From NCBI GenBank assembly GCA_032718475.1, contig JAUCBJ010004655.1, positions 5,988-69,987 of the forward strand: 64,000 nucleotides of DNA, given 5' to 3'. This stretch comes from Nemertoderma westbladi (taxonomy: Eukaryota; Animalia; Xenacoelomorpha). A program made the position numbers and the translations under genes. Below, piece after piece: positions 4,255-44,482 of this stretch. The first letter of the stretch is position 1; each line of letters starts with the position of its first letter. The notes below the pieces were generated by a model. The model searched no databases. It worked only from the letters and a program-made list of their open reading frames with translations, and had not been told where the DNA came from.

Positions 4255-4462
4255 TGCCTAGGTATTCTAAATGTGGCGAGTCTTGCGGAATGTTCCAGTA
4301 TGCCATTCGTTGAAAACATCTTAATTTCCTGCTTTGAAAATATGTGCGACGCCCTTCCCGATAACCCAAGAGCCAAATGTCAATACTTCGAGGCTTTAGT
4401 ACGTCTGTGTCAGAATGCAGGTGTGGTCATGCAGGGAGACTGGAGACAACAGACTTCATGTG
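4255..4462 (+). CDS. Exon 3: C8 domain
   Basis: ctttag|TGC ... TGT G|gttagt; CLGILNVASLAEC...SCFENMC...CQYFEALVRLC...DWRQQTSC is a typical C8 pattern; phase 0-1. Confidence 0.92.
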
Positions 4463-4524
4463 GTTAGTATCTAATAATTAAAATAATTTTGACTAGACAA
4501 TAGGCTGCAGACAACATACTGGAT

Positions 4525-7500
4525 GTAACAGTCTGGTTGTGGTTGTGGGTTGTATCAAATAATTCAGACTCATAACGACTGGAGACTTCAATCTGGTTGT
4601 TGGTAGTATCAAATAACTGGGGACAGTAGCAGTCTGGTTGTTGTTAGTATCAAATAATTCAGACTCATAAAGACTAGAGACTTCAATCTGGTTGTGGGGA
4701 TAGTATCAAATAACTGGGGACAGTAGCAGTCTGGTTGTTGTTAGTATCAAATAATTCAGACTCATAAAGACTGGAGACTTCAATCTGGTTGTGGGGGTAG
4801 TATCAAATACCTGGGGACAGTAGCAGTCTGGTTGTTGTTAGTATCAAATAATTCAGACTCATAAAGACTGGAGACTTCAATCTGGTTGTGGGGGTAGTAT
4901 CAAATAATTCAGACTCATAAAGACTGGAGACTTCAATCTGGTTGTTGGTAGTATCAAATAACTGGGGACAGTAGCAGTCTGGTTGTTGTTAGTATTAAAT
5001 AATTCAGACTCATAAAGACTGGAGACTTCAATCTGGTTGTTGGTAGTATCAAATAACTGGGGACAGTAAGTAGCAGTCTGGTCGTGGGTAGTATCAAATA
5101 ATTCAGACTCATAAAGACTGGAGACTTCAATCTGGTTGTGGGGGTAGTATCAAATAACTGGGGACAGTAGCAGTCTGGTTGTTGTTAGTATCAAATAATT
5201 CAGACTCCTAAAGACTGGAGACTTCAATCTGGTTGTGGGGGTAGTATCAAATAACTGGGGACAGTAGCAGTCTGGTTGTTGTTAGTATCAAATAATTCAG
5301 ACTCATCAACACTGGAGACTTCAATCTGGTTGTGGGGGTAGTATCAAATAACTGGAGACAGTAGCAGTCTGGTCGTGGGTTGTATCAAATAATTCAGACT
5401 CATAAAGACTGGAGACTTCAATCTGGTTGTTGGTAGTATATAATACTGTAACTGGGGACAGTAGCAGTCTGGTTGTTGTTAGTATCAAATAATTCAGACT
5501 CATAAAGACTGGAGACTTCAATCTGGTTGTTGGTAGTATCAAATAACTGGGGACAGTTGTAGCAGTCTGGTTGTTGTTAGTATCAAATAATTCAGACTCA
5601 TAAAGACTGGAGACTTCAATCTGGTTGTTGGTAGTATCAAATAACTGGGGACAGTAAGTAGCAGTCTGGTCGTGGGTAGTATCAAATAATTCAGACTCAT
5701 AAAGACTGGAGACTTCAATCTGGTTGTTGGTAGTATTAAATAACTGGGGACAGTAGCAGTCTGGTAGTTGTTAGTATCAAATAATTCAGACTCATAAAGA
5801 CTGGAGACTTCAATCTGGTTGTTGGTAGTATCAAATAACTGGGGACAGTTGTAGCAGTCTGGTTGTTGTTAGTATCAAATAATTCAGACTCATAAAGACT
5901 GGAGACTTCAATCTGGTTGTTGGTAGTATCAAATAACTGGGGACAGTAAGTAGCAGTCTGGTCGTGGGTAGTATCAAATAATTCAGACTCATAAAGACTG
6001 GAGACTTCAATCTGGTTGTTGGTAGTATTAAATAACTGGGGACAGTAGCAGTCTGGTTGTTGTTAGTATTAAATAATTCAGACTCATAAAGACTGGAGAC
6101 TTCAATATGATTGTTGGTAGTATAAAATAACTGGGAACAGTAAGTAGCAGTCTGGTCGTGGGTAGTATCAAATAATTCAGACTCATAAAGACTGGAGACT
6201 TCAATCTGGTTGTTGGTAGTATATAATACTGTAACTGGGGACAGTAGCAGTCTGGTTGTTGTTAGTATCAAATAATTCAGACTCATAAAGACTGGAGACT
6301 TCAATCTGGTTGTTGGTAGTATCAAATAACTGGGGACAGTAGCAGTCTGGCCGTGGGTTGTATCAAATAATTCAGACTCATAAAGACTGTAGACTTCAAT
6401 CTGGTTGTTGGTAGTATCAATTACCTGGGGACAGTAGCAGTCTGGTTGTTGTTAGTATCAAATAATTCAGACTCATAATGACTGGAGACTTCAATCTGGT
6501 TGTTGGTAGTATCAAATAACTGGGGACAGTTGTAGCAGTCTGGTTGATGTTAGTATCAAATAATTCAGACTCATAAAGACTGGAGACTTCAATCTGGTTG
6601 TTGGTAGTATCAAATAACTGGGGACAGTAGCAGTCTGGTTGTTGTTAGTATTAAATAATTCAGACTCATAAAGACTGGAGACTTCAATCTGGTTGTTGGT
6701 AGTATCAAATAACTGGGGACATTAGCAGTCTGGTTGTTGTTAGTATCAAATAATTCATACTGATAAAGACTGGAGACTTCAATCTGGTTGTGGGGGTAGT
6801 ATCAAATAACTGGGGACAGTAGCAGTCTGGTTGTGGGTTGTATCAAATAACTGGGGACAATACTGTAGCAGTCTGGTTGTTGTTAGTATCAAATAATTCA
6901 GACTCAAAAAGACTGGAGACTTCAATCTGGTTGTTGGTAGTATCAAATAACTGGGGACAGTAGCAGTCTGGTTGTTGTTAGTATTAAATAATTCAGACTC
7001 ATAAAGACTGGAGACTTCAATCTGGTTGTTGGTAGTATCAAATAACTGGGGACAGTTGTAGCAGTCTGGTTGATGTTAGTATCAAATAATTCAGACTCAT
7101 AAAGACTGGAGACTTCAATCTGGTTGTTGGTAGTATCAAATAACTGGGGACAGTAGCAGTCTGGTTGTTGTTAGTATTAAATAATTCAGACTCATAAAGA
7201 CTGGAGACTTCAATCTGGTTGTTGGTAGTATCAAATAACTGGGGACATTAGCAGTCTGGTTGTTGTTAGTATCAAATAATTTATACTGATAAAGACTGGA
7301 GACTTCAATCTGGTTGTGGGGGTAGTATCAAATAACTGGGGACAGTAGCAGTCTGGTTGTGGGTTGTATCAAATAACTGGGGACAATACTGTAGCAGTCT
7401 GGTTGTTGTTAGTATCAAATAATTCAGACTCATAAAGACTAGAGACTTCAATCTGGTTGTGGGGGTAGTATCAAATAACTGGGGACAGTAGCAGTCTGGT

Positions 7501-7965
7501 TGTGGGTTGTATCAAATAATTCAGACTCATAAAGACTGGAGACTTCAATCTGGTTGTTGGTAGTATAAAATAACTGGGGACAGTTGTAGCAGTCTGGTTG
7601 TTGTTAGTATCAAATAATTCAGACTCATAAAGACTGGAGACTTCAATCTGGTTGTTGGTAGTATAAAATAACTGGGGACAGTAGCAGTCTGGTTGTTGTT
7701 AGTATCAAATAATTCAGACTCATAAAGACTGGAGACTTCAATCTGGTTGTTGGTAGTATAAAATAACTGGGGACAGTAGCAGTCTGGTTGTTGTTAGTAT
7801 CAAATAATTCAGACTCATAAAGACTAGAGACTTCAATATGGTTTATTGGTAGGCTCAAATAATTCAAACGCAAAACTACTGGAGACAGCAAGGTCTGGTT
7901 GTGGGTTGAATCAAATTATTCAGACTCACTGGAGGTAGCATATTGGTTGTGGGAGTAGCAGTCTG
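4525..7965. repeat. Intronic minisatellite, ~95-bp dimeric unit, related to the exon 3 end and donor
   Basis: Unit GTAGCAGTCTGGTTGTTGTTAGTATCAAATAATTCAGACTCATAAAGACTGGAGACTTCAATCTGGTTGTTGGTAGTATCAAATAACTGGGGACA, made of two related subunits. Confidence 0.95.
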
Positions 7966-8606
7966 CAAAATTTCTGTCGTAGTTCTGACTATGTCCTCTA
8001 GTTCTACAAGATGTATCGCGCTTGAAACATAATTCAGGGTTTAAGTCAACCAAACCGTTTATTATTTTGTACACAAATGAAATTGCAGTCGTTCAATATA
8101 AGATAGACTTTGGTCTAAATTGCTTCGAAGTAATCGACGTGTAAAAATCTTTGCACCGATTCTAGGCGGTCACTTTGCCCTAAATAAGGTCTGCTGTTGG
8201 AGTGGGGGTTCCAAACGCAACGGTCTCGGTCTTGCATAAACTTTATATGCAGTTACCAAAGGGATAGGTCTAATTAAGGACAATACTGTTGTATTGATGC
8301 CCGTTTAACTATAGTTTTAATATATTCGCCAAAATTCAATTTGTTATTAATAATTACACCGAGGTCCCTATGATTAATAACGTTACTACTGCATTAATTG
8401 TATTTTCTGCGACAAGTGTCGGTCGACCGATACTTAGTACTTTACATTTCTTTTTAGCATCTCTCAACTGCCACCCTTTGGACCACTTGACGAATATATC
8501 AATAGTTTCCTGCAGTAGAAAACGTTCAGTAATGTTTGAAAATTTAAAAATATTTTCGCATCACTGGAAATATTATCTGTTAGGTCTCCTACATACATTC
8601 CAAAGT

Positions 8607-8800
8607 GTCCGGTCCGGTCCGGTCCGGTCCGGTCCGGTCCGGTCCGGTCCGGTCCGGTCCGGTCCGGTCCGGTCCGGTCCGGTCCGGTCCGGTCCGGTCC
8701 GGTCCGGTCCGGTCCGGTCCGGTCCGGTCCGGTCCGGTCCGGTCCGGTCCGGTCCGGTCCGGTCCGGTCCGGTCCGGTCCGGTCCGGTCCGGTGGTCCGG
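8607..8800. repeat. (GTCCG)n pentanucleotide microsatellite
   Basis: Perfect GTCCG run of about 37 units. Confidence 0.98.
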
Positions 8801-9155
8801 ATAATGTTCCTTGGGCTATTCCCGATTATACTATTTGATATTTTGAAAAAGAGTTGCCCACCTTTACCCGTTGCACCCTATCATTGAAAAATTTCGTGTA
8901 CCGATTAATGACACCGGCACAGCACGCGCCACACGGTACGTACCGATAACGGCTTATGCAGCTTGTGTTGTCTGCATCTGTGATGAATGACTTACTGTTA
9001 GGCCTACCTAACTTAATCATACTGAAAGTATAGTTACTTTATTTCACGCCGTGAGATATACAGTAGGCCCCTAGCCCATATCATATCATTGAGTTTACTT
9101 GTTATCGCGGCGTATTTTACGCCGACTTGAAAATAAAGATTTATATATTTTTCAG

Positions 9156-9355
9156 AGATTGAATGTGGGGAAAATATGGAATACGAGGTTTGTCACCTTC
9201 CCTGTCAATCGTCGTGCACTAACATTGAACCGAGTTGTAGTGAGGAGAGTTGCGTAGAAGGTTGTTTTTGCGCCGCCGGTAAGACCTACGACCAAGGTGA
9301 ATGTGTAGATGCCCAGCAATGCGGTTGTCGCCATACCAACGGTAATTACTACTCG
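9156..9355 (+). CDS. Exon 4: TIL domain
   Basis: tttcag|AG ATT GAA TGT ... TCG|gtgagt; CGENMEYEVCHLPCQSSC...CVEGCFC...CVDAQQCGC is a 10-Cys TIL; phase 1-0. Confidence 0.95.
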
Positions 9356-9649
9356 GTGAGTCTATCATAAAACAAATCAAGAAGATATTGTGTACGGGAA
9401 ATTTTTGTTTCTCTTACAGTAGCTTTTATATGCAAATTAGTATATTAGACCTCTACTACCACAGAATATGATTCAAATATTATATTATAATACTGAATTT
9501 CAATGGTGTCAGGCGGCAGAGGTTTATCTGTTCACCAATTTTGTTCTGTATTATTCTAAATTAAAGCCCGATGAAATATGTAAAGGCAAATGTACGCACA
9601 ATTGATTCTACTGTAGGCCTACCACACGTACCTACACCTATACACACTT

Positions 9650-10715
9650 CCTTCCGAACAGCCAAGTAAACTTAGAATCATGGATAATGATACCAATTCC
9701 GATAGATAGGGGAATGCTAATTAAAAACAAGGATTCACGGTTCATATACTAATCGATAGATTGGGGCGGCAATAATGTGAACGATACCTCTAGGAACGCA
9801 GGCAAAAATATCCCTGATGATAAAGAACTTAAATCACACTTTGAAGGTTTACTAAACCCGGCGGCTGATGCAGTGAAGATTTCGAATCTTCTCACCACAT
9901 ACTTCATTTGGATGACCAGTTCAGTGCGAAGGAACTTGCAGAATCTATGGCGAATATAGAGAACTCTAAATCATATTGATACAGTTTGGGGTAGGGCGGG
10001 TTGACCTCGGTGTGACTAATGAAATGAACAACTCGAAATCATATTGATACAGTTTGGGGTAGGGCGGGTTGACCTCGGTGTCACTAATGAAATGAACAAC
10101 TCGAAATCATATTGATACAGTTTGGGGTAGGGCGGGTTGACCTCGGTGTCACTAATGAAATGAACAACTCGAAATCATATTGATACAGTTTGGGGTAGGG
10201 CGGGTTGACCTCGGTGTCACTAATGAAATGAACAACTCGAAATCATATTGATACAGTTTGGGGTCGGGCGGGTTGACCTCGGTGTCACTAATGAAATGAA
10301 CAACTCGAAATCATATTGATACAGTTTGGGGTAGGGCGGGTTGACCTCGGTGTAACTAATGAAATGAACAACTCGAAATCATATTGATACAGTTTGGGGT
10401 AGGGCGGGTTGACCTCGGTGTCACTAATGAAATGAACAACTCGAAATCATATTGATACAGTTTGGGGTAGGGCGGGTTGACCTCGGTGTGACTAATGAAA
10501 TGAACAACTCGAAATCATATTGATACAGTTTGGGGTAGGGCGGGTTGACCTCGGTGTCACTAATGAAATGAACAACTCGAAATCATAGGAATCTCTCCTG
10601 GTGTATTTAAATCTCTTCCTGGCTGTTGACTAATATTTTTCCTTTTTCTTTTTAATTGTTGTATATTAAAATCTGGTAATGGACTCGATTGTAATAACTT
10701 CCGAGGTATCTATAA
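9650..10715 (+). mobile_element. Highly degraded LINE (non-LTR) ORF2 remnant, interrupted by a 68-bp array
   Basis: Broken frames give KELKSHFEGLLNP...LDDQFSAKEL... then GISPGVFKSLP...KSGNGLDCNNFRGI, resembling the pre-RT/RT domain 0 region. Confidence 0.55.
9968..10587. repeat. 68-bp tandem repeat, 9 copies
   Basis: Unit AAATCATATTGATACAGTTTGGGGTAGGGCGGGTTGACCTCGGTGTCACTAATGAAATGAACAACTCG; TCATA recurs at 9971, 10039, 10107 ... 10583. Confidence 0.97.
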
Positions 10716-11498
10716 AGTCGACCTTAGGTATATGATATTATAGTCAGTAAAAGTTAGTTGCTTCGGGTGATTTGGATAGGTGTTAGGCTGGTGGGCAAAA
10801 AGGTCGTAAATGTTTGGAGCAAATTACACCACACGATTAAAATATTGATTTTTCCATATATAAGAAACTGAAAGTATATGTCCGCGTCCCACGCAAGAAA
10901 CCACCTTAGTATCTAAAAAGTCTCGTGGTGTGGGAAGGTTATGTTGCTAGCCCTAGCCCTACGTGCACTTTATAGTAATATTTAATACAAAATATATAAA
11001 CCATCTACTCGATATAGTGACGTTATTCTGCTACATGCCCCTCTCCCTTTTTTGGACACCTTCTTCAAACTCTTTTAGCTATAGAGACTGAAAGCAAAAA
11101 AATTATGGCTCACCCACGAAAGAGGAGAGTGGGGAAACTATCTCTATTTCAAATTTCATGCTAGTGAACCAATTTGACCTGTTCCATTACAGTAAGAATG
11201 TTTGAAGCAATATATTAACTACTGTAGAACTGAACGATTTGAACCGTGCTCCACTCGGTACATTAAAGTCGGTAAGACATTAAGTCCTTTGTTAAAAAAT
11301 ATAAGAATTTATTTGGACTAAAGGTATATCCGTAGGACTATCTAAGTCCAAAACCCTGAACCTATCAAGCACACAATCAATAAACTGAAAATAGAATATC
11401 GAATTTTGTAAGGAGAACGGCGTGATACCTATAGTATTGATTGGTGATTAATATAGGACCATGATTAATATTAAATAATTAAAATGTGAATCTTCTAG

Positions 11499-11661
11499 GT
11501 GGGTGAAACCGTAATCAATGCTGATTGCAGCCAGAAATGTAGCTGTACTATGGACCACACAATGGAATGCATCTCTGTGAATTGTCAAGACAATTCCGTG
11601 TGCTCCAATGTAGACGGAATATATGGTTGTCAGTGCGAGGAGGACTACGAAATGGCTCCGG
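11499..11661 (+). CDS. Exon 5: TILa / EGF-like module
   Basis: tcttctag|GTG ... CCG G|gttcgt; VGETVINADCSQKCSC...CQDNSVCSNVDGIYGCQC; phase 0-1. Confidence 0.88.
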
Positions 11662-11698
11662 GTTCGTACTCAAATAATAATTGATTGTTTTCATCAGA

Positions 11699-12402
11699 GC
11701 CGTCACTCGGCCGTCACTCAACCGTCACTCGGCCGTCACTCGGCCGTCACTCGGCCGTCACTCGGCCGTCACTCGGCCGTCACTCGGCCGTCACTCGGCC
11801 GTCACTCGGCCGTCACTCGGCCGTCACTCGGCTGTCACTCGGCCGTCACTCGGCCGTCACTCGGCCGTTACTCGGCCGTCACTCGGCCGTCACTCGGTCG
11901 TCACTCGGCCGTCACTCGGCCGTCATTCAGCCGTCACTCAGCCGTCACTCGACCGTCACTCGGCCGTCACTCGGCCGTCACTCAGCCGTCACTTGGCCGT
12001 CACTCAGCCGTCACTCGGCCGTCACTCAGCCGTCACTCAGCCGCCACTCAGCCGTCACTTGGCCGTCGCTCAGCCGTCACTCGGCCGTCACTTGGCCGTC
12101 ACTCAGCCGTCACTCGGCTCAACCGTCACTCGGCCGTCACTCAGCCGTCACTCGGCCGTCACTCAGCCGTCAATCAGCCGCCACTCAGCCGTCACTTGGC
12201 CGTCACTCAGCCGTCACTCAGCCGTCACTCGGTAGTCACTCAGCCGTCACTCGGCCGTCACTCAGCCGTCACTCAGCCGCCACTCAGCCGTCACTTGGCC
12301 GTCACTCAGCCGTCACTCAGCCGTCACTCGGCCGTCACTCAGCCGTCACTCGGTCGTCACTCACCCGTCACTCGGCCGTCACTCAGCCGTCACTCGGCAC
12401 TC
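11699..12402. repeat. 11-bp minisatellite (GCCGTCACTCR)n
   Basis: About 64 tandem copies of CCGTCACTCGG/CCGTCACTCAG. Confidence 0.97.
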
Positions 12403-12480
12403 GACTTTGGCCATTAAATGATTATCGCAGCTGAAAAATATTTACAATAATTATTTCTTGTTTTATTTTTCAATATTCAG

Positions 12481-13606
12481 ATATAGTCGTAGTATAGTAG
12501 ATATAGTAGCTCACGGTAGTAGTATAGTAGATACAGTAGCTCACGGTAGTAGTATAGTAGATATAGTGGCTCTCGGTAGTAGTATAGTAGATATAGTAGC
12601 TCACGGTAGTAGTATAGTAGATATAGTAGCTCACGGTAGTAGTATAGTAGATATAGTGGCTCACGGTAGTAGTATAGTAGATATAGTATCTCACGGTAGT
12701 AGTATAGTAGATATAGTGGCTCACGGCAGTAGTATAGTAGATATAGTAGCTCACGGTAGTAGTATAGTAGATATAGTAGCTCACGGTAGTAGTATAGTAG
12801 ATTTAGTAGCTCACGGTAGTAGTATAGTACATATAGTAGCTCACGGTAGTAGTATAGTAGATATAGTGGCTCACGGTAGTAGTATAGTAGATATAGTGGC
12901 TCACGGTAGTAGTATAGTAGATATAGTAGCTCACGGTAGTAGTATAGTAGATATAGTGGCTCACGGTAGTAGTATAGTAGATATAGTAGCTCACGGTAGT
13001 AGTATAGTAGATATAGTGGCTCACGGTAGTAGTATAGTAGATATAGTGGCTCACGGTAGTAGTATAGTAGATATAGTGGCTCACGGTAGTAGTATAGTAG
13101 ATATAGTAGCTCACGGTAGTAGTATAGTAGATATAGTGGCTCACGGTAGTAGTATAGTAGATATAGTAGCTCACGGTAGTAGTATAGTAGATATAGTGGC
13201 TCACGGTAGTAGTATAGTAGATATAGTGGCTCACGGTAGTAGTATAGTAGATATAGTAGCTCACGGTAGTAGTATAGTAGATATAGTGGCTCACGGTAGT
13301 AGTATAGTAGATATAGTGGCTCACGGTAGTAGTATAGTAGATATAGTAGCTCACGGTAGTAGTATAGTAGATATAGTGGCTCACGGCAGTAGTATAGTAG
13401 ATATAGTAGCTCACGGTAGTAATATAGTAGATATAGTGGCTCACGGCAGTAGTATAGTAGATATAGTAGCTCACGGTAGTAGTATAGTAGATATAGTGGC
13501 TCACGGTAGTAGTATAGTAGATATAGTGGCGCACGGTAGTAGTATAGTAGATATAGTGGCTCACGGTAGTAGTATAGTAGATATAGTAGCTCACGGTAGT
13601 AATATA
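12481..13606. repeat. 30-bp tandem repeat, ~37 copies
   Basis: Unit ATATAGTRGCTCACGGTAGTAGTATAGTAG, highly homogeneous. Confidence 0.97.
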
Positions 13607-13850
13607 CTGTACGTAATTGATGTACATAATAATATATATGTACATACAATATACAGCACCGGTAATAAAGTTATACTGTATGAATTATCATTGATTAAAT
13701 GCTTATAAAGAGATACAATACTAATGTTTCAATAAATATTAGGAAACAATCCTTTATAACGGCTGAACTATTGTAATGGGTTACTTCTGAAATTAATGAT
13801 GACTTCTTTCTAATCTTTCTTGCTTCTAATAATATTTAAATATATTTCAG

Positions 13851-13909
13851 ACGGTTCCAACCAATGTATAAAAATTGTGACCGAAGAGGATTTGTGTAAC
13901 GAGCGCGAG
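13851..13909 (+). CDS. Exon 6: end of EGF-like module and linker
   Basis: tttcag|AC GGT ... GAG|gtaagt; DGSNQCIKIVTEEDLCNERE; phase 1-0. Confidence 0.82.
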
Positions 13910-13999
13910 GTAAGTATGTGCGACTTTACACAACGTACTGTAGCCTATGTACGATCTGTTATTGCATACACTACAGTACTATTTTATTATCCATTATAG

Positions 14000-14156
14000 G
14001 GTTATAGATACGAAGGTACTGACTGCAACCAAATCAACGAGTGTTTGGAAGGCATTGACGAATGTGACGCCGATGTTAGTGAGTGTGTTGATGAGGATCC
14101 GTTATACAGATGCGACTGTAAAGAAGGATTCACTGAAGTTGATGGTGTTTGTGTTG
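14000..14156 (+). CDS. Exon 7: cbEGF
   Basis: tatag|GGT ... GTT G|gtaagt; GYRYEGTDCNQINECLEGIDECDADVSECVDEDPLYRCDCKEGFTEVDGVCV; phase 0-1. Confidence 0.9.
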
Positions 14157-14203
14157 GTAAGTAAAGCTAATGAACTACTCAGATAACAACATTGAATATC
14201 ATT

Positions 14204-15228
14204 TGGTCCTTTCATAGATTGTAAATTTAGATGCGTATAAGATGTCGCTAAATTAAGATTCCTTTTATTCACATAAAACACTGTTGTACTGCTTTTACCA
14301 GAAGGCCTACCGGTATCAGGTTTCTGGGTGTATAGATAGCAGTATTTTGCGTGCCGGTAGTGTTCAATGTATCAATGACAGAAGGTACCAGCAGAGGCTT
14401 AGCGAGCCCTTCTAGCGCCCAGGAGAATGAAGCTGAGATAGCCCCCCTCCCCCCCTCCCCCTTCAATAATTTTAACTTTTCATTTATGGTGTTTTTTTTT
14501 AAATATTATATAACAGAATATAATATTTAAAAAAACATCTATAAAACAGTTTACTAAAAGTATATAACTATATCAAATCTACAATATTATACACAAGTTT
14601 GATATAGTGGAATTCTAATAATGTATATTGAATGGAGAGCGAAGCGAGCGGAGAAAATTTTTACATTTTTCGCTTATGACACATGTCCTGTATATACTGT
14701 ATCACAATCCCTGAATTTTCACTGATTTGTCTTATTTTTACAAGAATACCCTGACATTTGCCTGGCATTTCAGCGCCCCCGGGTGAGTGCGCACGGGGGA
14801 ACATTCCCCCCCCCCCCCCCCCCTCGCTACGCCTCTGGGTACCAGCTGACCGGAAGCCGGAGTAAAGTAGTATAGCAGCCTACTGTATGTAACAAATGCA
14901 GAAATGTAACTCAATAAAAAGATACCGGTACGGGGCTTAATAGTGCAATCATACCTAAGTAGGCATACCTTATAATAATGTTAACTTGTCTGTATGTTCT
15001 GACGCGTAGTCTACCAGTTCGGTACGTATATCAGTATATTGCAGTATTGTAGGTCTATCTGCCATTGAAAACAACCACTGAACTTGCGGTACACAAATAC
15101 TGCAATCTATACACATGCAGACTTGTGACCGGTACTGGTAAAAGCAGCGGAGCAGAGTGTTAGTCGAACGTGTTCTTAATTTGGCGATATTTTAAACGCA
15201 ACTTACTTTACAATGTATGAAATGACCA
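14204..15228. mobile_element. Old foldback/MITE with ~185-bp imperfect TIRs, hosting a nested hAT MITE
   Basis: 14204-14390 (TGGTCCTTTCATAGATTGTAAA...) is the imperfect reverse complement of ~15050-15228 (...TTTACAATGTATGAAATGACCA). Confidence 0.75.
14392..14837. mobile_element. hAT-like MITE
   Basis: TIR CAGAGGC(T/G)TAGCGAG at both ends; perfect 8-bp TSD GGTACCAG (14384-14391 and 14838-14845). Confidence 0.9.
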
Positions 15229-15550
15229 TATTAAGTGCAATATTAATTTTCACCTGTCTGCATGGATGGTTGTTTATAGATTATCTTTCATCTGGCGGTC
15301 CAGTTCGCCACACTTTCGATCAAGTTTTGTCTAGAATCGTGTAGTGTACTATCCTAATGCACGAAATCATATCAATGCCGTAATGTACGATTTATACAGG
15401 CAAGCGTGTTGGGCCGCATTTAATTATATCTCAAATTTATAAAATGTTAATTGTCAAGTGACGTCAACACTCAAAGTAAAGATTTTCTAAATTCCCTAAA
15501 ATACCAAGGTCCCGTCGTGAAACTCTGTTCTTATAAATTTTCCAATGTAG

Positions 15551-15775
15551 ACGTGGATGAATGCCAGTTGAACAGGGATGAGTGCGACCAATCAACTACC
15601 ACGTGCGTCAATGAGGATGGGGGATATACCTGCACGTGTAGAAATGGTTTCAGACCTTCCCAGAACAACCTGCAGTGCGTTAATATCAATGAATGCGAAG
15701 AGGGTGGTGATGACTGTGACGATAATGCTGAATGTATCGATAACTTTGGAGATTATTCATGTGAATGCGACAACG
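15551..15775 (+). CDS. Exon 8: cbEGF repeats
   Basis: tgtag|AC GTG GAT GAA TGC ... AAC G|gtaagt; DVDECQLNRDEC...NINECEEGGDDC; phase 1-1. Confidence 0.95.
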
Positions 15776-16269
15776 GTAAGTTCTGAAACCGTTTATGCAC
15801 CCGTTCATCAGTGATTATATATACATAATTATATATATATATATAGTGATAGATTACATGGTAGATTAGTGGTAACAACGTGTTGTTATATTGGACATTA
15901 CAACACTAGATGGCAAACATATCACGAATTACGGTACATCCATATATTCAATAGAGAAGTCATTTCGACTTTACAAAACTTGACTTTACTTAACTACTAA
16001 GCAGTACTTTACAGTTGACATTGAAAATAAATAAATATTGAAATATATATAGGGTATAAAGTTAATTTTCGCCACTGACAGGGATTGAACCCGCGCCAAA
16101 TACTATTAGGATACACTTTGAAAAAATATAACAAACCAATTGGTTACCTAAGTATTTAAACACTTTTTATAGTACGGTAATACAGGCGAGCACTCAGTTG
16201 AGTTTCTCAACTATAATATAATCTTATAAAAAAGTTGGTAAACGACAACCAATTTACCAGGGGCGGCCG

Positions 16270-16352: not shown

Positions 16353-16399
16353 AGGTCCCAGGTTATTCTGGTGATGTTACCAAGTTCCAATTGTTACAG

Positions 16400-33496: not shown

Positions 33497-36400
33497 TTCG
33501 TGGTGCCATGTCAGTTAGTTGGATGAACGCTGTGGTACCATATGGATTTAGGTGGGTGGACACTGCGTTACCATGTGGATTTAGTTGGGTGAATGCTGTG
33601 GTACCATGTGGATTTAGTTGGGTGAACGCCGTGGTACCCTGTGGATTTAGTTGGGTGAACGCTGTGGTACCATGTGGATTTAGTTGGGTGAACGCCGTGG
33701 TACCCTGTGGATTTAGTTGGGTGAATGCTGTGGTACCATGTGGATTTAGTTGGGTGAACGCCGTGGTACCCTGTGGATTTAGTTGGGTGAACGCTGTGGT
33801 ACCATGTGGATTTAGTTGGATGAACACTGTGGTACCATGTGGATTTAGTTGGGTGAACACTATGGTACCATGTGGATTTAGTTGGGTGAACACTGTGGTA
33901 CCATGTGGATTTAGTTGGATGAACGCTGTGGTACCATGTGGATTTAGTTGGGTGAATACTGTGGTGCCATGTCAGTTAGTTAGATGAACGCTGTAGTACC
34001 ATGTGGATTTAGTTGGATGAACGCTGTGGTACCATGTGGATTTAGTTGGGTGAATAATGTGGTGCCATGTCAGTTAGTTGGATGAACGCTGTGGTACCAT
34101 ATGGATTTAGTTGGGTGAACACTGTGTTACCATGTGGATTTAGTTGGGTGAATGCTGTGGTACCATGTGGATTTAGTTGGGTGAACGCCGTGGTACCCTG
34201 TGGATTTAGTTGGGTGAATGCTGTGGTACCATGTGTATTTAGTTGGGTGAACACTATGGTACCATGTGGATTTAGTTGGGTGAACACTGTGGTACCATGT
34301 GGATTTAGTTGGATGAACGCTGTTGTACCATGTGGATTTAGTTGGGTGAATACTGTGGTGCCATGTCAGTTAGTTGGAGACCGCTGTGGTACCATGTGGA
34401 TTTAGTTGGGTGAACACTGTGGTACCTTGTGGATTTAGTTGGATGAACGCTGTGGTACCATGTCAGTTAGTTGGATGAACGCTGTGGTACCATATGGATT
34501 TAGTTGGGTGAACACTGTGTTACCATGTGGATTTAGTTGGGTGAATGCTGTGGTACCATGTGGATTTAGTTGGATCAACGCTGTGGTACCATGTGGATTT
34601 AGTTGGGTGAACACTGTGGTACCATGTGGATTTAGTTGGATGAACGCTGTGGTACCATATGGATTTAGTTGGGTGAACACTGTGGTACCATGTGGATTTA
34701 GTTGGATGAACGCTTTGGTACCATGTGGATTTAGTTGGGTGAACACTATGGTACCATGTCGATTTAGTTGGGTGAATACTGTGGTGCCAGTCAATTAGTT
34801 GGATGAACGCTGTGGTACCATATGGATTTAGTTGGGTGAACACTGTGTTACCATGTGGATTTAGTTGGGTGAATGCTGTGGTACCATGTGGATTTAGTTG
34901 GATCAACGCTGTGGTACCATGTGGATTTAGTTGGGTGAACACTATGGTACCATGTGGATTTAGTTGGGTGAATACTGTGGTGCCATGTCAGTTAGTTGGA
35001 TGAACGCTGTGGTACCATATGGATTTAGTTGGGTGAACACTGTGTTACCATGTGGATTTAGTTGGGTGAATGCTGTGGTACCATGTGGATTTAGTTGGAT
35101 CAACGCTGTGGTACCATGTGGATTTAGTTGGGTGAACACTATGGTACCATGTGGATTTAGTTGGGTGAACACTGTGGTACCATGTGGATTTAGTTGCGTG
35201 AACACTATGGTACCATGTGGATTTAGTTGGGTGAACACTGTGGTACCATGTGGATTTAGTTGGATGAATGCTGTGGTACCATGTGGATTTAGTTGGGTGA
35301 ACACTATGGTACCTTGTGGAGTTAGTTGGGTGAACACTATGGTACCATGGGGATTTAGTTGGGTGAACACTGTGGTACCATGTGGATTTAGTTGGATGAA
35401 CGCTGTGGTACCATGTGGATTTAGTTGGGTGAACACTATGGTACCTTGTGGAGTTAGTTGGGTGAACACTATGGTACCATGGGGATTTAGTTGGATGAAC
35501 GCTGTGGTACCATGTGGATTTAGTTGGGTGAATAATGTGGTGCCATGTCAGTTAGTTGGATGAACGCTGTGGTACCATATGGATTTAGTTGGGTGAACAC
35601 TGTGGTACCATGTGGATTTAGTTGGATGAACGCTTTGGTACCATGTGGATTTAGTTGGGTGAACACTATGGTACCATGTGAATTTAGTTCGGTGAACACT
35701 GTGTTACCATGTTGATTTAGTTGGGTGAATGCTGTGGTACCATGTGGTTTTAGTTGGGTGAACACTATGGTACCATGTGGATTTAGTTGGGTGAAAACTG
35801 TGGTACCATGTGGAATTAGTTTGGTGAACGCCGTGGTACCCTGTGGATTTAATTGGGTGAACGGCGAACGCCGTGGTACCCTGTGGATTTAGTTGGGTGA
35901 ACGCCGTGGTACCCTGTGGATTTAGTTGGGTGAAAGCTGTGGAACCATGTCAGTTAGTTGGGTGAACGCCGTGGTACCCTGTGGATTTAGTTGGGTGAAC
36001 ACTGTGTTACCATGTGGATTTAGTTGGATGAACGCTGTGGTACCATTTGGATTTAGTTGGGTGAATACTGTGGTGCCATGTCAGTTAGTTGGATGAACGC
36101 TGTGGTACCATATGGATTTAGTTGGGCGAACACTGTGTTACCATGTGGATTTAGTTGGGTGAATGCTGTGGTACCATGTGGATTTAGTTGGATCAACGCT
36201 GTGGTACCATGTGGATTTAGTTGGGTGAACACTATGGTACCATGTGGATTTAGTTGGGTGAACACTGTGGTACCATGGGGATTTAGTTGGATGAACGTTG
36301 TGGTACCATGTGGATTTAGTTGGGTGAACACTATGGTACCTTGTGGAGTTAGTTGGGTGAACACTATGGTACCATGGGGATTTAGTTGGGTGAACACTGT

Positions 36401-39400
36401 GGTACCATGTGGATTTAGTTGGATGAACGCTGTGGTACCATATGGATTTAGTTGGGTGAACACTGTGGTACCATGTGGATTTAGTTGGATGAACGCTTTG
36501 GTACCATGTGGATTTAGTTGGGTGAACACTATGGTACCATGTGGATTTAGTTCGGTGAGCACTGTGTTACCATGTTGATTTAGTTGGGTGAATGCTGTGG
36601 TACCATGTGGTTTTAGTTGGGTGAACACTATGGTACCATGTGGATTTAGTTGGGTGAAAGCTGTGGTACCATGTGGATTTAGTTTGGTGAACGCCGTGGT
36701 ACCATGTCAGTTAGTTGGATGAACGCTGTGGTACCATGTGGATTTAGTTGAGTGAACACTGTGGTGCCATGTGGATTTAGTTGGGTGAACGCCGTGGTAC
36801 CCTGTGGATTTAATTGGGTGAACGACGAACGCCGTGGTACCCTGTGGATTTAGTTGGGTGAACGCCGTGGTACCCTGTGGATTTAGTTGGGTGAAAGCTG
36901 TGGAACCATGTCAGTTAGTTGGGTGAACGCCGTGGTACCATTTCAGTTAGTTGGATGAAAGCTGTGGTACCCTGTGGATTTAGTTGGGTGAACGCCGTGG
37001 TACCCTGTGGATTTAGTTGGGTGAAAGCTGTGGAACCATGTCAGTTAGTTGGGTGAACGCCGTGGTACCATGTCAGTTAGTTGGATGAACGCTGTGGTAC
37101 CCTGTGGATTTAGTTGGGTGAACGCCGTGGTACCCTGTGGATTTAGTTGGGTGAACGCTGTGGAACCATGTCAATTAGTTGGATGAACGCCGTGGTACCA
37201 TGTCAGTTAGTTAGATGAACGCCGTGGTACCGTGTGGATTTAGTTGGGTGAACACTGTGTTACCATGTGGATTTAGTTGGGTGAACGCTGTGGTACCATG
37301 TGGATTTAGTTGGGTGAACACTGTGGTACTATGTGGATTTAGTTGGGTGAACACCGTGTTACCATGTTGATTTAGTTGGGTGAATGCTGTGGTACCATGT
37401 GGTTTTAGTTGGGTGAACACTGTGGTACCATGTGGATTTAGTTGGGTGAATGCTGTGGTACCATGTGGATTTAGTTAGGTGAACGCTGTGGTACCCTGTG
37501 AATTTAGTTGGGTGAAAGCTGTGGAACCATGACAGTTAGTTGGGTGAACGCCGTGGTACCCTGTGGATTTAGTTGGGTGAACACTGTAGTACCATGTGGA
37601 TTTAGTTGAGTGAATGCTGTGGTACCATGCGGATTTAGTTGGGTGAACGCTTTGGTACCATGTGGATTTAGTTCAGTGAACGCTATGGTACCTTGTGGAT
37701 TTAGTTGGGTGAAAGCTTTGGTACCATGTGGATTTAATTGAGTGAACACTGTGGTACCATGTGGATTTAGTTGGGTGAAAGCTGTGGTACCATGTGAATT
37801 TAGTTGGGTGAACGCTGTGGTACCATGTGGATTTAGTTGGGTGAACGCTGTTACCATGTGGATTTAGTTGGGTGAACGCTGTGGTACCATGTGGATTTAG
37901 TTGGGTGAAGACTGTTACCATGTGGATTTAGTTGGGTGAACGCTGTTGTACCTTGTGGATTTAGTTGGGTGAAAGCTGTGGTACCATGTCAGTTAGTTGG
38001 GTGAAAGCCGTGGTACCCTGTGGATTTAGTTGGGTGAACTCTGTGTTACCATGTGGATTTAGTTGGGTGAACGCTGTGGTACCATGTGGATTTAGTTGGG
38101 TGAACGCTGTTACCATGTGGATTTAGTTGGGTGAACGCTGTGGTACCATGTGGATTTAGTTGGGTGAACGCTGTTACCATGTGGATTTAGTTGGGTGAAC
38201 GCTGTGATACCTTGTGGATTTAGTTGGGTGAAAGCTGTGGTACCATGTCAGTTAGTTGGGTGAAAGCCGTGGTACCCTGTGGATTTAGTTGGGTGAACAC
38301 TGTGTTACCATGTGGATTTAGTTGGGTGAACGCTGTGGTACCCTGTGGATTTAGTTGGGTGAACACTGTGTTACCATGTGGATTTAGTTGGGTGAAAGCT
38401 TTGGTACCATGTGGATTTAGATGGGTGAACGCCGTGGTACCATGTGGATTTAGTTGAGTGAACACTGTGGTACCATGTGGATTTAGTTGGGGGAAAGCTT
38501 TGGTACCATGTGGATTTAGTTGGGTGAAAGCTTTGGTACCATGTGGATTTAGTTGGGTGAACACTGTGTTACCATGTGGATTTAGTTGGGTGAACACCAT
38601 GGTACCATGTGGATTTAGTTGGGTGAACACTGTGGTACCTTGTGGATTTAGTTGGGTGAACACTGTGGTACCATGTGGATTTAGTTGGGTGAACACTGTG
38701 GTACCTTGTGGATTTAGTTGGGTGAACACTGTGGTACCATATGGATTTAGTTGGGTGAACACTGTGGTAACTTGTGGATTTAGTTGGGTGAACACTATGG
38801 TACCATGTGGATTTAGTTGGGTGAACAATGTGATACCTTGTGGATTTAGTTGGGTGAACACTGTGGTACCATATGGATTTAGTTGGGTGAACACTGTGGT
38901 ACCTTGTGGATTTAATTGGGTGAACACTGTGGTACCATGTGGATTTAGTTGGGTGAAAGCTTTGGTACCATGTGGATTTAGTTGGGTGAACACTGTGGTA
39001 CCATGTGGATTTAGTTGGGTGATCACTGTGGTACCTTGTGGATTTAGTTGGGTGAACACTGTGGTACCTTGTGGATTTAGTTGGGTGAACACTATGGTAC
39101 CATGTGGATTTAGTTGGGTGAACACTGTGCTACCTTGTGGATTTAGTTGGGTGAACACTGTGGTACCATATGGATTTAGTTGGGTGAACACTGTGTTACC
39201 ATGTGGATTTAGTTGGGTGAAAGCTTTGGTACCATGTGGATTTAGATGGGTGAACGCCGTGGTACCATGTGGATTTAGTTGAGTGAACACTGTGGTACCA
39301 TGTGGATTTAGTTGGGTGAAAGCTTTGGTACCATGCGGATTTAGTTGGGTGAACACTGTGGTACCTTGTGGATTTAGTTGGGTGAACACTGTGGTGCCAT

Positions 39401-42400
39401 GTGGATTTAGTTGGGTGAACACTATGGTACCTTGTGGAGTTAGTTGGGTGAATACTGTGGTACCATGTCAGTTAGTTGGATGAACGCTGTGGTACCATAT
39501 GGATTTAGTTGGGTAAACACTGTGTTACCATTTGGATTTAGTTGGGTAAACACTGTGGTACCATGTGGATTTAGTTGGGTGAACACTATGGTACCTTGTG
39601 GAGTTAGTTGGGTGAATACTGTGGTACCATGTCAGTTAGTTGGATGAACGCTGTGGTACCATATGGATTTAGTTGGGTAAACACTGTGTTACCATTTGGA
39701 TTTAGTTGGGTAAACACTGTGGTACCATGTGGATTTAGTTGGGTGAACACTATGGTACCTTGTGGAGTTAGTTGGGTGAATACTGTGGTACCATGTCAGT
39801 TAGTTGGATGAACGCTGTGGTACCATATGGATTTAGTTGGGTAAACACTGTGTTACCATGTGGATTTAGTTGGGCGAACACTGTGTTACCATGTGGATTT
39901 AGTTGGGTGAATGCTGTGGTACCATGTGGATTTAGTTGGATCAACGCTGTGGTACCATGTGGATTTAGTTGGGTGAACACTATGGTACCATGTGGATTTA
40001 GTTGGGTGAACACTGTGGTACCATGGGGATTTAGTTGGATGAACGTTGTGGTACCATGTGGATTTAGTTGGGTGAACACTATGGTACCTTGTGGAGTTAG
40101 TTGGGTGAACACTATGGTACCATGGGGATTTAGTTGGGTGAACACTGTGGTACCATGTGGATTTAGTTGGATGAACGCTGTGGTACCATATGGATTTAGT
40201 TGGGTGAACACTGTGGTACCATGTGGATTTAGTTGGATGAACGCTTTGGTACCATGTGGATTTAGTTGGGTGAACACTATGGTACCATGTGGATTTAGTT
40301 CGGTGAGCACTGTGTTACCATGTTGATTTAGTTGGGTGAATGCTGTGGTACCATGTGGTTTTAGTTGGGTGAACACTATGGTACCATGTGGATTTAGTTG
40401 GGTGAAAGCTGTGGTACCATGTGGATTTAGTTTGGTGAACGCCGTGGTACCATGTCAGTTAGTTGGATGAACGCTGTGGTACCATGTGGATTTAGTTGAG
40501 TGAACACTGTGGTGCCATGTGGATTTAGTTGGGTGAACGCCGTGGTACCCTGTGGATTTAATTGGGTGAACGACGAACGCCGTGGTACCCTGTGGATTTA
40601 GTTGGGTGAACGCCGTGGTACCCTGTGGATTTAGTTGGGTGAAAGCTGTGGAACCATGTCAGTTAGTTGGGTGAACGCCGTGGTACCATTTCAGTTAGTT
40701 GGATGAAAGCTGTGGTACCCTGTGGATTTAGTTGGGTGAACGCCGTGGTACCCTGTGGATTTAGTTGGGTGAAAGCTGTGGAACCATGTCAGTTAGTTGG
40801 GTGAACGCCGTGGTACCATGTCAGTTAGTTGGATGAACGCTGTGGTACCCTGTGGATTTAGTTGGGTGAACGCCGTGGTACCCTGTGGATTTAGTTGGGT
40901 GAACGCTGTGGAACCATGTCAATTAGTTGGATGAACGCCGTGGTACCATGTCAGTTAGTTAGATGAACGCCGTGGTACCGTGTGGATTTAGTTGGGTGAA
41001 CACTGTGTTACCATGTGGATTTAGTTGGGTGAACGCTGTGGTACCATGTGGATTTAGTTGGGTGAACACTGTGGTACTATGTGGATTTAGTTGGGTGAAC
41101 ACCGTGTTACCATGTTGATTTAGTTGGGTGAATGCTGTGGTACCATGTGGTTTTAGTTGGGTGAACACTGTGGTACCATGTGGATTTAGTTGGGTGAATG
41201 CTGTGGTACCATGTGGATTTAGTTAGGTGAACGCTGTGGTACCCTGTGAATTTAGTTGGGTGAAAGCTGTGGAACCATGACAGTTAGTTGGGTGAACGCC
41301 GTGGTACCCTGTGGATTTAGTTGGGTGAACACTGTAGTACCATGTGGATTTAGTTGAGTGAATGCTGTGGTACCATGTGGATTTAGTTGGGTGAACGCTT
41401 TGGTACCATGTGGATTTAGTTCAGTGAACGCTATGGTACCTTGTGGATTTAGTTGGGTGAAAGCTTTGGTACCATGTGGATTTAATTGAGTGAACACTGT
41501 GGTACCATGTGGATTTAGTTGGGTGAAAGCTGTGGTACCATGTGAATTTAGTTGGGTGAACGCTGTGGTACCATGTGGATTTAGTTGGGTGAACGCTGTT
41601 ACCATGTGGATTTAGTTGGGTGAACGCTGTGGTACCATGTGGATTTAGTTGGGTGAAGACTGTTACCATGTGGATTTAGTTGGGTGAACGCTGTTGTACC
41701 TTGTGGATTTAGTTGGGTGAAAGCTGTGGTACCATGTCAGTTAGTTGGGTGAAAGCCGTGGTACCCTGTGGATTTAGTTGGGTGAACTCTGTGTTACCAT
41801 GTGGATTTAGTTGGGTGAACGCTGTGGTACCATGTGGATTTAGTTGGGTGAACGCTGTGGTACCATGTGGATTTAGTTGGGTGAACGCTGTTACCATGTG
41901 GATTTAGTTGGGTGAACGCTGTGGTACCATGTGGATTTAGTTGGGTGAACGCTGTGGTACCATATGGATTTAGTTGGGTGAACGCTGTGGTACCATGTGG
42001 ATTTAGTTGGGTGAACGCTGTTACCATGTGGATTTAGTTGGGTGAACGCTGTGGTACCATGTGGATTTAGTTGGGTGAACGCTGTTACCATGTGGATTTA
42101 GTTGGGTGAACGCTGTGATACCTTGTGGATTTAGTTGGGTGAAAGCTGTGGTACCATGTCAGTTAGTTGGGTGAAAGCCGTGGTACCCTGTGGATTTAGT
42201 TGGGTGAACACTGTGTTACCATGTGGATTTAGTTGGGTGAACGCTGTGGTACCCTGTGGATTTAGTTGGGTGAACACTGTGTTACCATGTGGATTTAGTT
42301 GGGTGAAAGCTTTGGTACCATGTGGATTTAGATGGGTGAACGCCGTGGTACCATGTGGATTTAGTTGAGTGAACACTGTGGTACCATGTGGATTTAGTTG

Positions 42401-44482
42401 GGGGAAAGCTTTGGTACCATGTGGATTTAGTTGGGTGAAAGCTTTGGTACCATGTGGATTTAGTTGGGTGAACACTGTGTTACCATGTGGATTTAGTTGG
42501 GTGAACACCATGGTACCATGTGGATTTAGTTGGGTGAACACTGTGGTACCTTGTGGATTTAGTTGGGTGAACACTGTGGTACCATGTGGATTTAGTTGGG
42601 TGAACACTGTGGTACCTTGTGGATTTAGTTGGGTGAACACTGTGGTACCATATGGATTTAGTTGGGTGAACACTGTGGTAACTTGTGGATTTAGTTGGGT
42701 GAACACTATGGTACCATGTGGATTTAGTTGGGTGAACAATGTGATACCTTGTGGATTTAGTTGGGTGAACACTGTGGTACCATATGGATTTAGTTGGGTG
42801 AACACTGTGGTACCTTGTGGATTTAATTGGGTGAACACTGTGGTACCATGTGGATTTAGTTGGGTGAAAGCTTTGGTACCATGTGGATTTAGTTGGGTGA
42901 ACACTGTGGTACCATGTGGATTTAGTTGGGTGATCACTGTGGTACCTTGTGGATTTAGTTGGGTGAACACTGTGGTACCTTGTGGATTTAGTTGGGTGAA
43001 CACTATGGTACCATGTGGATTTAGTTGGGTGAACACTGTGCTACCTTGTGGATTTAGTTGGGTGAACACTGTGGTACCATATGGATTTAGTTGGGTGAAC
43101 ACTGTGTTACCATGTGGATTTAGTTGGGTGAAAGCTTTGGTACCATGTGGATTTAGATGGGTGAACGCCGTGGTACCATGTGGATTTAGTTGAGTGAACA
43201 CTGTGGTACCATGTGGATTTAGTTGGGTGAAAGCTTTGGTACCATGCGGATTTAGTTGGGTGAACACTGTGGTACCTTGTGGATTTAGTTGGGTGAACAC
43301 TGTGGTGCCATGTGGATTTAGTTGGGTGAACACTATGGTACCTTGTGGAGTTAGTTGGGTGAATACTGTGGTACCATGTCAGTTAGTTGGATGAACGCTG
43401 TGGTACCATATGGATTTAGTTGGGTAAACACTGTGTTACCATTTGGATTTAGTTGGGTAAACACTGTGGTACCATGTGGATTTAGTTGGGTGAACACTAT
43501 GGTACCTTGTGGAGTTAGTTGGGTGAATACTGTGGTACCATGTCAGTTAGTTGGATGAACGCTGTGGTACCATATGGATTTAGTTGGGTAAACACTGTGT
43601 TACCATTTGGATTTAGTTGGGTAAACACTGTGGTACCATGTGGATTTAGTTGGGTGAACACTATGGTACCTTGTGGAGTTAGTTGGGTGAATACTGTGGT
43701 ACCATGTCAGTTAGTTGGATGAACGCTGTGGTACCATATGGATTTAGTTGGGTAAACACTGTGTTACCATGTGGATTTAGTTGGGTAAACACTGTGATAC
43801 CATGTGGATTTAGTTGGGTGAACACTGTGGTACCATGTGGATTTAGTTGGGTGAACACTATGGTACCTTGTGGAGTTAGTTGGGTGAATACTGTGGTACC
43901 ATGTCAGTTAGTTGGATGAACGCTGTGGTACCATATGGATTTAGTTGGGTAAACACTGTGTTACCATTTGGATTTAGTTGGGTAAACACTGTGGTACCAT
44001 GTGGATTTAGTTGGGTGAACACTATGGTACCTTGTGAAGTTAGTTGGGTGAATACTGTGGTACCGTGTCAGTTAGTTGGATGAACGCTGTGGTACCATAT
44101 GGATTTAGTTGGGTGAACACTGTGTTACCATGTGGATTTAGTTGGGTAAACACTATGGTACCTTGTGGAGTTAGTTGGGTGAATACTGTGGTACCATGTC
44201 AGTTAGTTGGATGAACGCTGTGGTACCATATGGATTTAGTTGGGTAAACACTGTGTTACCATTTGGATTTAGTTGGGTAAACACTGTGGTGCCATGTGGA
44301 TTTAGTTGGGTAAACACTATGGTACCTTGTGGAGTTAGTTGGGTGAATACTGTGGTACCATGTCAGTTAGTTGGATGAACGCAATGGTACCATATGGATT
44401 TAGTTGGGTAACCACTATGGTACCATGTGTATTTAGTTGGGTGAACGCTGTGGTAGCATGCGTGAGGTTATTTGGGTGAACA
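33497..44482. repeat. 11-kb 33-bp minisatellite derived from the exon 18 donor region
   Basis: Unit GTGGTACCATGTGGATTTAGTTGGGTGAACACT (32-nt variants occur), compared with junction TGGGCCGAACTCAGTGGTACCATGTGAG|GTTAGTT. Confidence 0.96.

What the first reader, a model, noticed from the sequence alone, without database searches (positions are those of the whole stretch)
4438..44482. Recurrent 5' splice-donor-seeded satellites: three introns of one gene are filled by amplified copies of their own exon end and donor
Seen: four unit families start at, or just after, an exon 3' end and copy that junction. Exon 3 gives a ~95-bp array (3.4 kb, diverged), exon 15 gives a 32/55-bp array (7.5 kb, near-perfect), and exon 18 gives an 88-bp array plus a 33-bp array (12 kb). 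The arrays of different introns are unrelated to each other, so these are independent events that share only their position at a donor. Together they total about 23 kb. The unique intron left is only ~250 nt (intron 15) and ~60 nt (intron 18). Inference: donor junctions act as hotspots or tolerated sites for satellite birth. The first copy stays the intact exon, so amplification is tolerated, and tiny introns become giant. The arrays look like an age series from intact to eroded donors.
Basis: partly seen in the sequence, partly recalled or inferred. Interest (0 to 1): 0.85.

Follow-up and report, generated by a model that had tools for sequence, protein, structure and literature searches.

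The report
Splice-donor stutter arrays in one gene
Three introns of one animal gene begin with head-to-tail copies of the preceding exon's end and its splice signal (23 kb in all), a spliced contig still uses the first signal at the two introns that could be checked, and this is likely a tolerated, large example of a repeat type already described in lancelets, chickens and human genes.

Summary
A 26-exon VWD-C8-TIL-EGF-Kazal-TSP1 gene carries four arrays (95, 32/55, 88 and 33 bp; 22,852 bp) whose best match is their own upstream donor (exons 3, 15, 18). One run that behaves as RNA splices from the first donor at exons 15 and 18; exon 3 was not covered. Short-read depth fits the assembled size of the 55- and 88-bp arrays and suggests that both are about 4-8 times shorter in one other sample. 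The 33-bp array was not depth-checked, and 3.8 kb of it is a near-exact doubling that could be an assembly error. The 'donor hotspot' reading is not shown: 3 donors against 0-1 acceptors is not significant, six other arrays in the gene are not junction-derived, and the scan's unchecked notes list many acceptor arrays in this genome. The type is known: amphioxus 'mirages', chicken 'exon stuttering' (spans to 23.5 kb, length-variable) and the human F7 VNTR. The scan found it before in at least 14 other pieces of this genome and in other genomes. Best mechanism: microhomology-seeded duplication across the junction, growth by unequal exchange, tolerated because the first donor wins. The extra point here is that the exon 18 donor was seeded twice.

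The parts
918..56381 (+). Host gene: 26 coding exons seen in the window, VWD-C8-TIL-TILa, many EGF, Kazal, TSP1 and a cystine-knot-like end; its 5' part lies upstream of the window or was not found
4255..4462 (+). Exon 3 (C8 domain); donor after 4462
   Evidence: no RNA cover
4438..7975 (+). Intron 3 array: source junction 4438-4502, edge copies more exon-like, core 4540-7862 of about 33 units of 95 bp, each made of two junction-like halves
22618..22734 (+). Exon 15 (EGF); first donor after 22734 is the one used
22714..30252 (+). Intron 15 array: mosaic of 32-bp and 55-bp (32+23) units; 174 donor 9-mers identical to the real one; internal exact blocks at lags of 1,802 and 1,416 bp
30253..30503 (+). 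Unique remainder of intron 15 (251 nt) with the acceptor of exon 16
32388..32563 (+). Exon 18 (EGF-like); first donor after 32563 is the one used
32476..33495 (+). Intron 18 young array: 88-bp unit (81 exon + 7 intron bases), 11.6 copies, 99% alike, 10 extra intact donors
33500..44482 (+). Intron 18 older array: 33-bp unit, about 334 copies, 88% alike; the common unit has lost the GT, 48 units keep GTTAGT, the last unit keeps the exon-like end; 36113-39875 is doubled at 39861-43786
44483..44542 (+). Unique remainder of intron 18 (60 nt) with the acceptor of exon 19
16358..16399 (+). Single diverged copy of the exon 9 acceptor and exon start, 39 bp upstream of the real one: an acceptor-side counterexample to a donor-only rule
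   Evidence: (16 of 18 identical, none of 300 shuffles as high)

Best explanation
Each array is a tandem amplification of its own exon end plus splice donor, likely started by a short duplication between microhomologies that flank the junction, likely enlarged by slippage and unequal exchange, and likely tolerated as neutral intron filler because the spliced contig uses the first donor at exons 15 and 18. Shown: sequence identity to the junction, first-donor use at two introns, kilobase block duplications inside two arrays, a stop codon within 15 nt of each first donor. Inferred: (1) seeds at short repeats (CAATGACT at intron 15; GAAC for the 33-mer and GTT-GTT for the 88-mer at intron 18); (2) at intron 15 the 55-mer came first, since it holds exon-only and intron-only flanks of a single donor, and the 32-mer arose inside it; (3) at intron 18 the 33-mer came first and the 88-mer re-seeded the same donor and pushed it downstream; (4) transcripts from later donors would carry a premature stop and would be removed by nonsense-mediated decay; (5) junction arrays persist because the seed copy is pinned by the exon, while the genome makes tandem duplications everywhere.
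For: Junction match and controls. Run X4 holds one 2,606-nt contig that joins exon 15's first donor to exon 16 and exon 18's first donor to exon 19, skips introns 16 and 17 at GT..AG, and has no depth on the array bins. Read-through of each first donor meets a stop at once. Exact blocks of 1,470 bp (0 differences) and 1,910 bp (1 difference) inside arrays. Unit-contig depth over neighbouring single-copy depth in X1 is about 53-64 for the 55-mer and 10-11 for the 88-mer, against 43-58 and 9 expected from the window. In sample S2 the same ratios are about 7 (X2) and 8-17 (X3), and about 2 (both), while the 95-mer bin stays at about 70 in X1 and X2: VNTR-like variation in the young arrays. A 44-bp tandem duplication with 5 nt of microhomology in X2 and X3 lies 21 bp past donor 2 without spanning it, and six non-junction arrays sit in the same gene. 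Same behaviour in lancelet mirages (PMC3087553), chicken exon stuttering (PMC12954441) and F7 (PMC1557585).
Against: No array-free allele or sister-species intron was seen, so the microhomologies could be leftovers of the last partial unit. RNA evidence is one contig from one run labelled 'DNA?'; contigs drop rare isoforms, and exon 3 was not covered. Depth is a crude yardstick (the tool says it is no copy number), X1 may be the assembly's own source, X2 and X3 are one sample, and the X3 ratio for the 95-mer is only about 30 on uneven depth. Junction-spanning arrays look more frequent in this gene than uniform seeding predicts (P = 0.002-0.025 for 3 of 8 loci), though the window was chosen for this feature. 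The 33-mer's length is unverified.
Confidence: 0.72

Rival explanations
1. Splice junctions are mutational hotspots in this lineage: transcription or splicing (R-loops, polymerase pausing, RNA-templated repair) seeds duplications at exon borders, donors and acceptors alike.
For: 3 of 8 array loci in the gene span a donor (P = 0.002-0.025, post hoc). The exon 18 donor was seeded twice. Unchecked scan notes report at least 14 further junction arrays in this genome. In chicken over 90% of copied exon pieces lie within 1 base of the border (PMC12954441 section 7).
Against: No unbiased genome-wide count was possible (no genome held). The scan's notes are selected for being striking. Selection alone forces surviving exon-containing arrays to span a border, and exons are richer in GC (51% against about 33-40% in unique flanks), which may favour their own seeds. 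Six arrays in the gene and the 44-bp duplication are not junction-spanning.
Confidence: 0.17
2. The arrays tune expression: more donor copies divert more transcripts into frameshifted, decaying forms or slow splicing, so array length acts as a dial, as proposed for the ABCA7 VNTR.
For: 174 and 10 perfect extra donors exist; lengths appear to differ between samples; ABCA7 shows single-unit retention and length-linked splicing (PMC5954066, passages). One unchecked note reports use of a later donor at another locus of this genome (e1-10614089).
Against: X4 shows only first-donor joints and no array-containing contig. Older arrays have lost most donors, which fits decay or silencing better than use. 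No sign of conservation.
Confidence: 0.06
3. The large sizes are partly assembly artefacts: two alleles or overlapping reads were joined in tandem inside the repeats.
For: The 33-mer array ends in a near-exact 3.75-kb doubling whose copies differ by 163 bp; the 32/55 array has a 1,470-bp exact repeat. The assembly may hold indel errors (one extra base in exon 24).
Against: X1 depth matches the window's multiplicity for the 55- and 88-mers; all array units tested exist in an independent sample; 75 distinct variants among 289 33-mer units cannot come from one collapsed repeat. At most this trims about 3.8 kb from intron 18.
Confidence: 0.05

Closest known systems
Amphioxus 'mirage' minisatellites (Adh3, globins BflGb6 and BflGb9, troponin C, PGBD5); PMC3087553 passages, PMC3902484 passage; the original Adh3 paper was not read
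   Same: [quoted passage not shown]
   Different: Mirages occur at both 5' and 3' borders and the globin cases have 3-6 units; here about 11, 33, 180 and 334 units over 1-11 kb, all at donors, with one donor seeded twice.
Chicken 'exon stuttering' on dot chromosomes (Hron et al. 2026, PMC12954441; abstract, sections 7 and 9, first part of section 8)
   Same: Lateral exon pieces with their splice site copied through the neighbouring intron; several introns per gene; two clusters in one intron; spans 112-23,555 bp; lengths vary between individuals; purely intronic arrays alongside.
   Different: Described for GC-rich bird chromosomes with 1-44 detected exon copies and stated not to be found in other vertebrates apart from some gerbil genes. 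Here it is an AT-rich invertebrate-type locus (about 40% GC) with up to about 334 copies, so high GC is not needed.
Human F7 intron 7 37-bp VNTR, with 6-16, CBS intron 13, lamin B2 and PDGF minisatellites (PMC1557585; abstract and passages)
   Same: The first unit spans the donor; identical pseudo-donors follow; the most upstream donor is used.
   Different: 5-25 copies and one intron per gene; 6-16 and CBS also use the nearest pseudo-sites, which was not seen here but could be hidden by contig assembly.
ABCA7 intron 18 25-bp VNTR (PMC5954066; passages)
   Same: Donor-containing array reaching kilobases (an allele of 9,711 bp is named); retention of one unit gives a frameshift.
   Different: Its unit starts at the GT and holds no exon bases; splicing effects and disease risk are shown there, none here.

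Membership tests
Mirage / exon-stuttering minisatellite | Tandem unit spans an exon-intron border of the host gene and repeats its splice site | tested here: met
   exact for 32/55 and 88, diverged but above all controls for 33 and 95
Mirage / exon-stuttering minisatellite | Local origin: unit confined to the intron next to its source exon | tested here: met
   Within the window no frequent 14-mer of 95, 32/55 or 88 occurs elsewhere, one chance-level hit for 33; X1 depth fits local copies only for 55 and 88. The whole genome could not be searched.
Mirage / exon-stuttering minisatellite | Coding exon intact and normal splicing kept | tested here: met
   Exons 1-23 in frame; first donors used at exons 15 and 18 in one contig; exon 3 not covered
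Mirage / exon-stuttering minisatellite | Length variation between alleles or individuals | tested here: inconclusive
   Depth ratios differ about 4-8-fold between S1 and S2 for the 55- and 88-mers; depth only, one other sample, no spanning reads; 33-mer not tested
Chicken sequence stuttering (narrow sense) | GC-rich avian dot-chromosome setting | tested here: not met
   Window GC 31-51% per kb; no close vertebrate relative of the protein found. It works like stuttering but is not that setting.
Dispersed satellite or transposon-borne repeat inserted at donors | Same unit at unrelated loci, or element ends and target duplication around the array | tested here: not met
   Arrays of different introns share no 14-mer; each runs directly out of its exon
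   No genome held; in this gene 3:0 or 3:1, not significant; unchecked notes list acceptor arrays

The most novel reading that the evidence does not exclude
This lineage has a genome-wide, splicing- or transcription-coupled process that repeatedly seeds tandem duplications at exon borders in AT-rich DNA, each new unit taking more exon and displacing the older array (33-mer then 88-mer at one donor), followed by selective sweeps of donor-dead unit variants (3 of the 5 changes in a common 33-mer fall at donor positions -2, -1 and +1; P = 0.003 post hoc). Exon borders would then be the main source of intron growth in this genome.
Probability: 0.15. Interest if true: 0.7.

Novelty: new member of a known kind. 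Interest (0 to 1): 0.3.

Why it matters
As a single locus it is a dense example of a known oddity. Its use is as a test bed: hundreds of perfect decoy donors behind a real one, in alleles that appear to differ several-fold in length, allow a direct test of first-come donor choice outside mammals, and four arrays of different age in one gene show the life cycle (seed, grow, re-seed, lose the donor). It also shows that exon stuttering does not need GC-rich bird chromosomes. It would matter more only if a genome-wide count proved a real junction bias.

Tried and rejected
Whole genome not held, so the genome-wide donor/acceptor test could not be run. No RNA holder listed; X4 proved to behave as RNA when laid. 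X4 gave no cover of exons 1-3: no evidence either way on exon 3 splicing or on the seed of the 40-bp array at 1-431. Protein searches: exon 3 gave no hit among 5 candidates; exon 16 gave 28 generic EGF-rich proteins at 30-48% identity, so no orthologue, no sister-species intron and no taxon were established. Rejected: the 30-bp array as a copy of donor 5 or acceptor 6 (1,492 of 6,974 and 1,434 of 6,902 control windows score as high); junction origin for the 5, 11, 40, 66, 68, 72 and 101-bp and the G-rich arrays; relics at the other 22 donors (none below P = 0.02 in the nearest 250 nt; D20 0.047 and D22 0.027 are expected among 50 tests); the '5 of 10 units' binomial, because the 32-mer is not independent of the 55-mer. 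Paper searches found nothing relevant on such arrays in echinoderms, acoels or under 'intron expansion'; one found only the chicken paper.
Full report
Host gene. The window holds a + strand animal gene. I placed 25 exons between 918 and 52139 with AG/GT borders (exon 17 start corrected) and a last coding exon at 56319. Exons 1-23 join into 1,336 codons without a stop. Pfam on 13 single exons gave VWD, C8, TIL, TILa, EGF, Kazal and TSP1 for 11 of 13; exon 25 looks like a cystine knot by language-model features (0.93, weak recognition value). No close orthologue was found and I did not establish the taxon; one unchecked scan note suggests an acoel worm. No genome is held.

Observation. TRF gives the four arrays at the stated places, 22,852 bp in sum. 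Of 13 arrays scored against all 25 donors and 25 acceptors, 4 match their own upstream donor best. The 32/55 and 88 units are exact copies of the junction. The 33-mer matches exon 18's end at 23 of 28 bases, above all 7,062 control windows. The 95-mer matches the exon 3 junction above all 6,964 control windows, but narrowly (46 against 42), and its exon part alone is not distinctive. The last units of the 95-mer and 33-mer arrays are closer to the exon than the core units, as expected when edges escape homogenisation. Arrays of different introns share no 14-mer (28 pairs).

Anatomy and order of events (inferred from sequence). Intron 15: 252 pieces, 177 of the donor-bearing type and 75 carrying the 23-bp part. 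The 55-mer holds bases found only upstream of the 32-mer's start and only downstream of its end, so it must have been copied from a single-donor allele; the 32-mer is then the stretch between two CAATGACT words within it. Intron 18: the array's far end preserves an exon-like end followed by a degenerate donor, which allows a 33-bp unit bounded by GAAC in exon and intron; the 88-mer, 81 exon plus 7 intron bases, is a second and later duplication at the same donor. Intron 3: a first repeat of about 65 bp at 4438-4502 and then a homogenised two-part 95-mer. These microhomologies cannot be told from partial last units without an array-free allele.

Age. Donor 9-mers identical to the real one: 10 in the 88-mer array, 174 in the 32/55 array, none in the other two; 48 33-mers and 25 95-mer halves keep GTTAGT with a changed exon side (matrix from the gene's own 25 donors). 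Mean pairwise unit identity is 99% (11 of 11 units), 95% (180 of 255 pieces), 88% (289 of 310) and 94% (28 of 32); pieces of other lengths were left out. So origin is ordered 88 and 32/55 young, 33 older, 95 oldest, but the 95-mer is homogenised and the 33-mer array has a recent 3.75-kb doubling.

Reads. One search listed 6 runs, none on record as RNA; I laid 4 of them twice. X4 behaves as RNA: one 2,606-nt contig skips introns 16 and 17 at GT..AG, continues upstream of exon 16 into exon 15 ending at its first donor, and continues from 32563 into exon 19; it has no depth on the array bins. Contigs drop rare forms, so low-level use of later donors is not excluded; such use would include a stop within 15 nt of the first donor in all three introns. 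X4 does not cover exons 1-3. Depth, a rough guide only: in X1 (possibly the assembly's source) the 55-bp cycle stands at 1,240 and the 88-bp cycle at 224 against 19.5-23.4 for flanking unique contigs, ratios of 53-64 and 10-11, close to 43-58 and 9 counted in the window. In sample S2 they are 161 and 50 against about 22 (X2), and 267 and 41 against 16-32 (X3). The 95-mer bin is 1,934 on 28 (X1), 1,603 on 23 (X2) and 275 on 9 (X3). The two young arrays thus appear several-fold shorter in the other sample while the old one does not, at least in X2. The 33-mer was not tested.

Is there a donor hotspot? Not shown. The gene span holds ten larger TRF arrays; six are not junction-derived. A single acceptor-side copy lies before exon 9, and S2 carries a 44-bp tandem duplication near donor 2 that does not span it. 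3:0 gives P = 0.25 and 3:1 gives 0.63. Against uniform seeding, 3 of 8 loci at donors gives P = 0.002-0.025, but the window was picked for this. Scan notes, unchecked and not counted as evidence, describe at least eight donor-seeded and seven acceptor-seeded loci elsewhere in this genome, which would make it a junction phenomenon and not a donor one.

Mechanism. Most likely (0.72): microhomology-seeded duplication across the junction, growth by slippage and unequal exchange, tolerated because the upstream donor is chosen and stray products would be degraded. Rivals: a junction-coupled mutational hotspot (0.17), a regulatory dial (0.06), partial assembly inflation (0.05).

Known systems. Amphioxus mirages are tandem repeats spanning exon-intron borders at either end, length-unstable, without disturbed splicing (PMC3087553, six passages read; PMC3902484, one passage). 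Chicken exon stuttering covers 236 introns in 115 genes, 1-44 copies, spans up to 23,555 bp, 183 of 192 length-variable (PMC12954441: abstract, sections 7 and 9, first part of section 8; it does not use the word mirage). Human F7 and four other genes have donor-spanning minisatellites, with first-donor choice shown experimentally for F7 (PMC1557585, abstract and passages). ABCA7 shows that such an array can affect splicing (PMC5954066, passages). Supplements were not read; the chicken paper's gene list could hold closer multi-intron parallels. Seven searches found no report for this kind of locus in another invertebrate than amphioxus; the library lacks most subscription papers.

Verdict. What it adds is density, copy number, low GC and double seeding of one donor. 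Interest 0.3; 0.7 if a genome-wide count proves a junction-coupled process (probability 0.15).

Noticed in passing
window 47755-47974: Exon 24 (Kazal) is 220 nt and changes frame by one base: the first half reads in one frame, the Kazal match in another.
   Followed up: partly
window 1695-1738: Runs X2 and X3 carry a 44-bp tandem duplication with 5 nt of microhomology, 21 bp past donor 2 and not spanning it; absent from the window.
   Followed up: partly
window 1596-1717: Exon 2 has two very different alleles in X1: 8 differences in 122 nt at equal depth (13.8 and 13.3).
   Followed up: no
window 3258-3687: 430-bp high-copy insertion with 31-nt inverted arms, skipped by contigs in X1, X2 and X3: MITE-like and polymorphic.
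   Followed up: partly
window 1-431: 40-bp array running off the window start, present in S2 too; its seed may be an upstream exon that lies outside the window.
   Followed up: partly
window 8607-8793, 9962-10587, 11699-12398, 12489-13606: Four further intronic arrays (5, 68, 11, 30 bp) with no junction match; introns 3, 4 and 5 are repeat-rich regardless of splice sites.
   Followed up: yes
window 16714-18060, 18200-18860, 49000-51450: Decayed LINE-type retroelement pieces in introns 9 and 24 (RT-like frame by eye; weak endonuclease match), ending in TAG runs; the 3' 66 bp of the last is tandemly doubled. A further piece lies on the minus strand near 55630-56290 (by eye).
   Followed up: partly
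window 19099-19172: tRNA-Asp(GTC) gene inside intron 9.
   Followed up: no
window 918-4462: The RNA-like run X4 covers exons 16-18 at depth about 400 but not exons 1-3; 3' bias, another start site or a gene boundary are all open.
   Followed up: no
window 59949-61747: Downstream of the gene, a G-rich 8/16/20-bp array (GC skew 0.98) abuts a 72-bp array.
   Followed up: no
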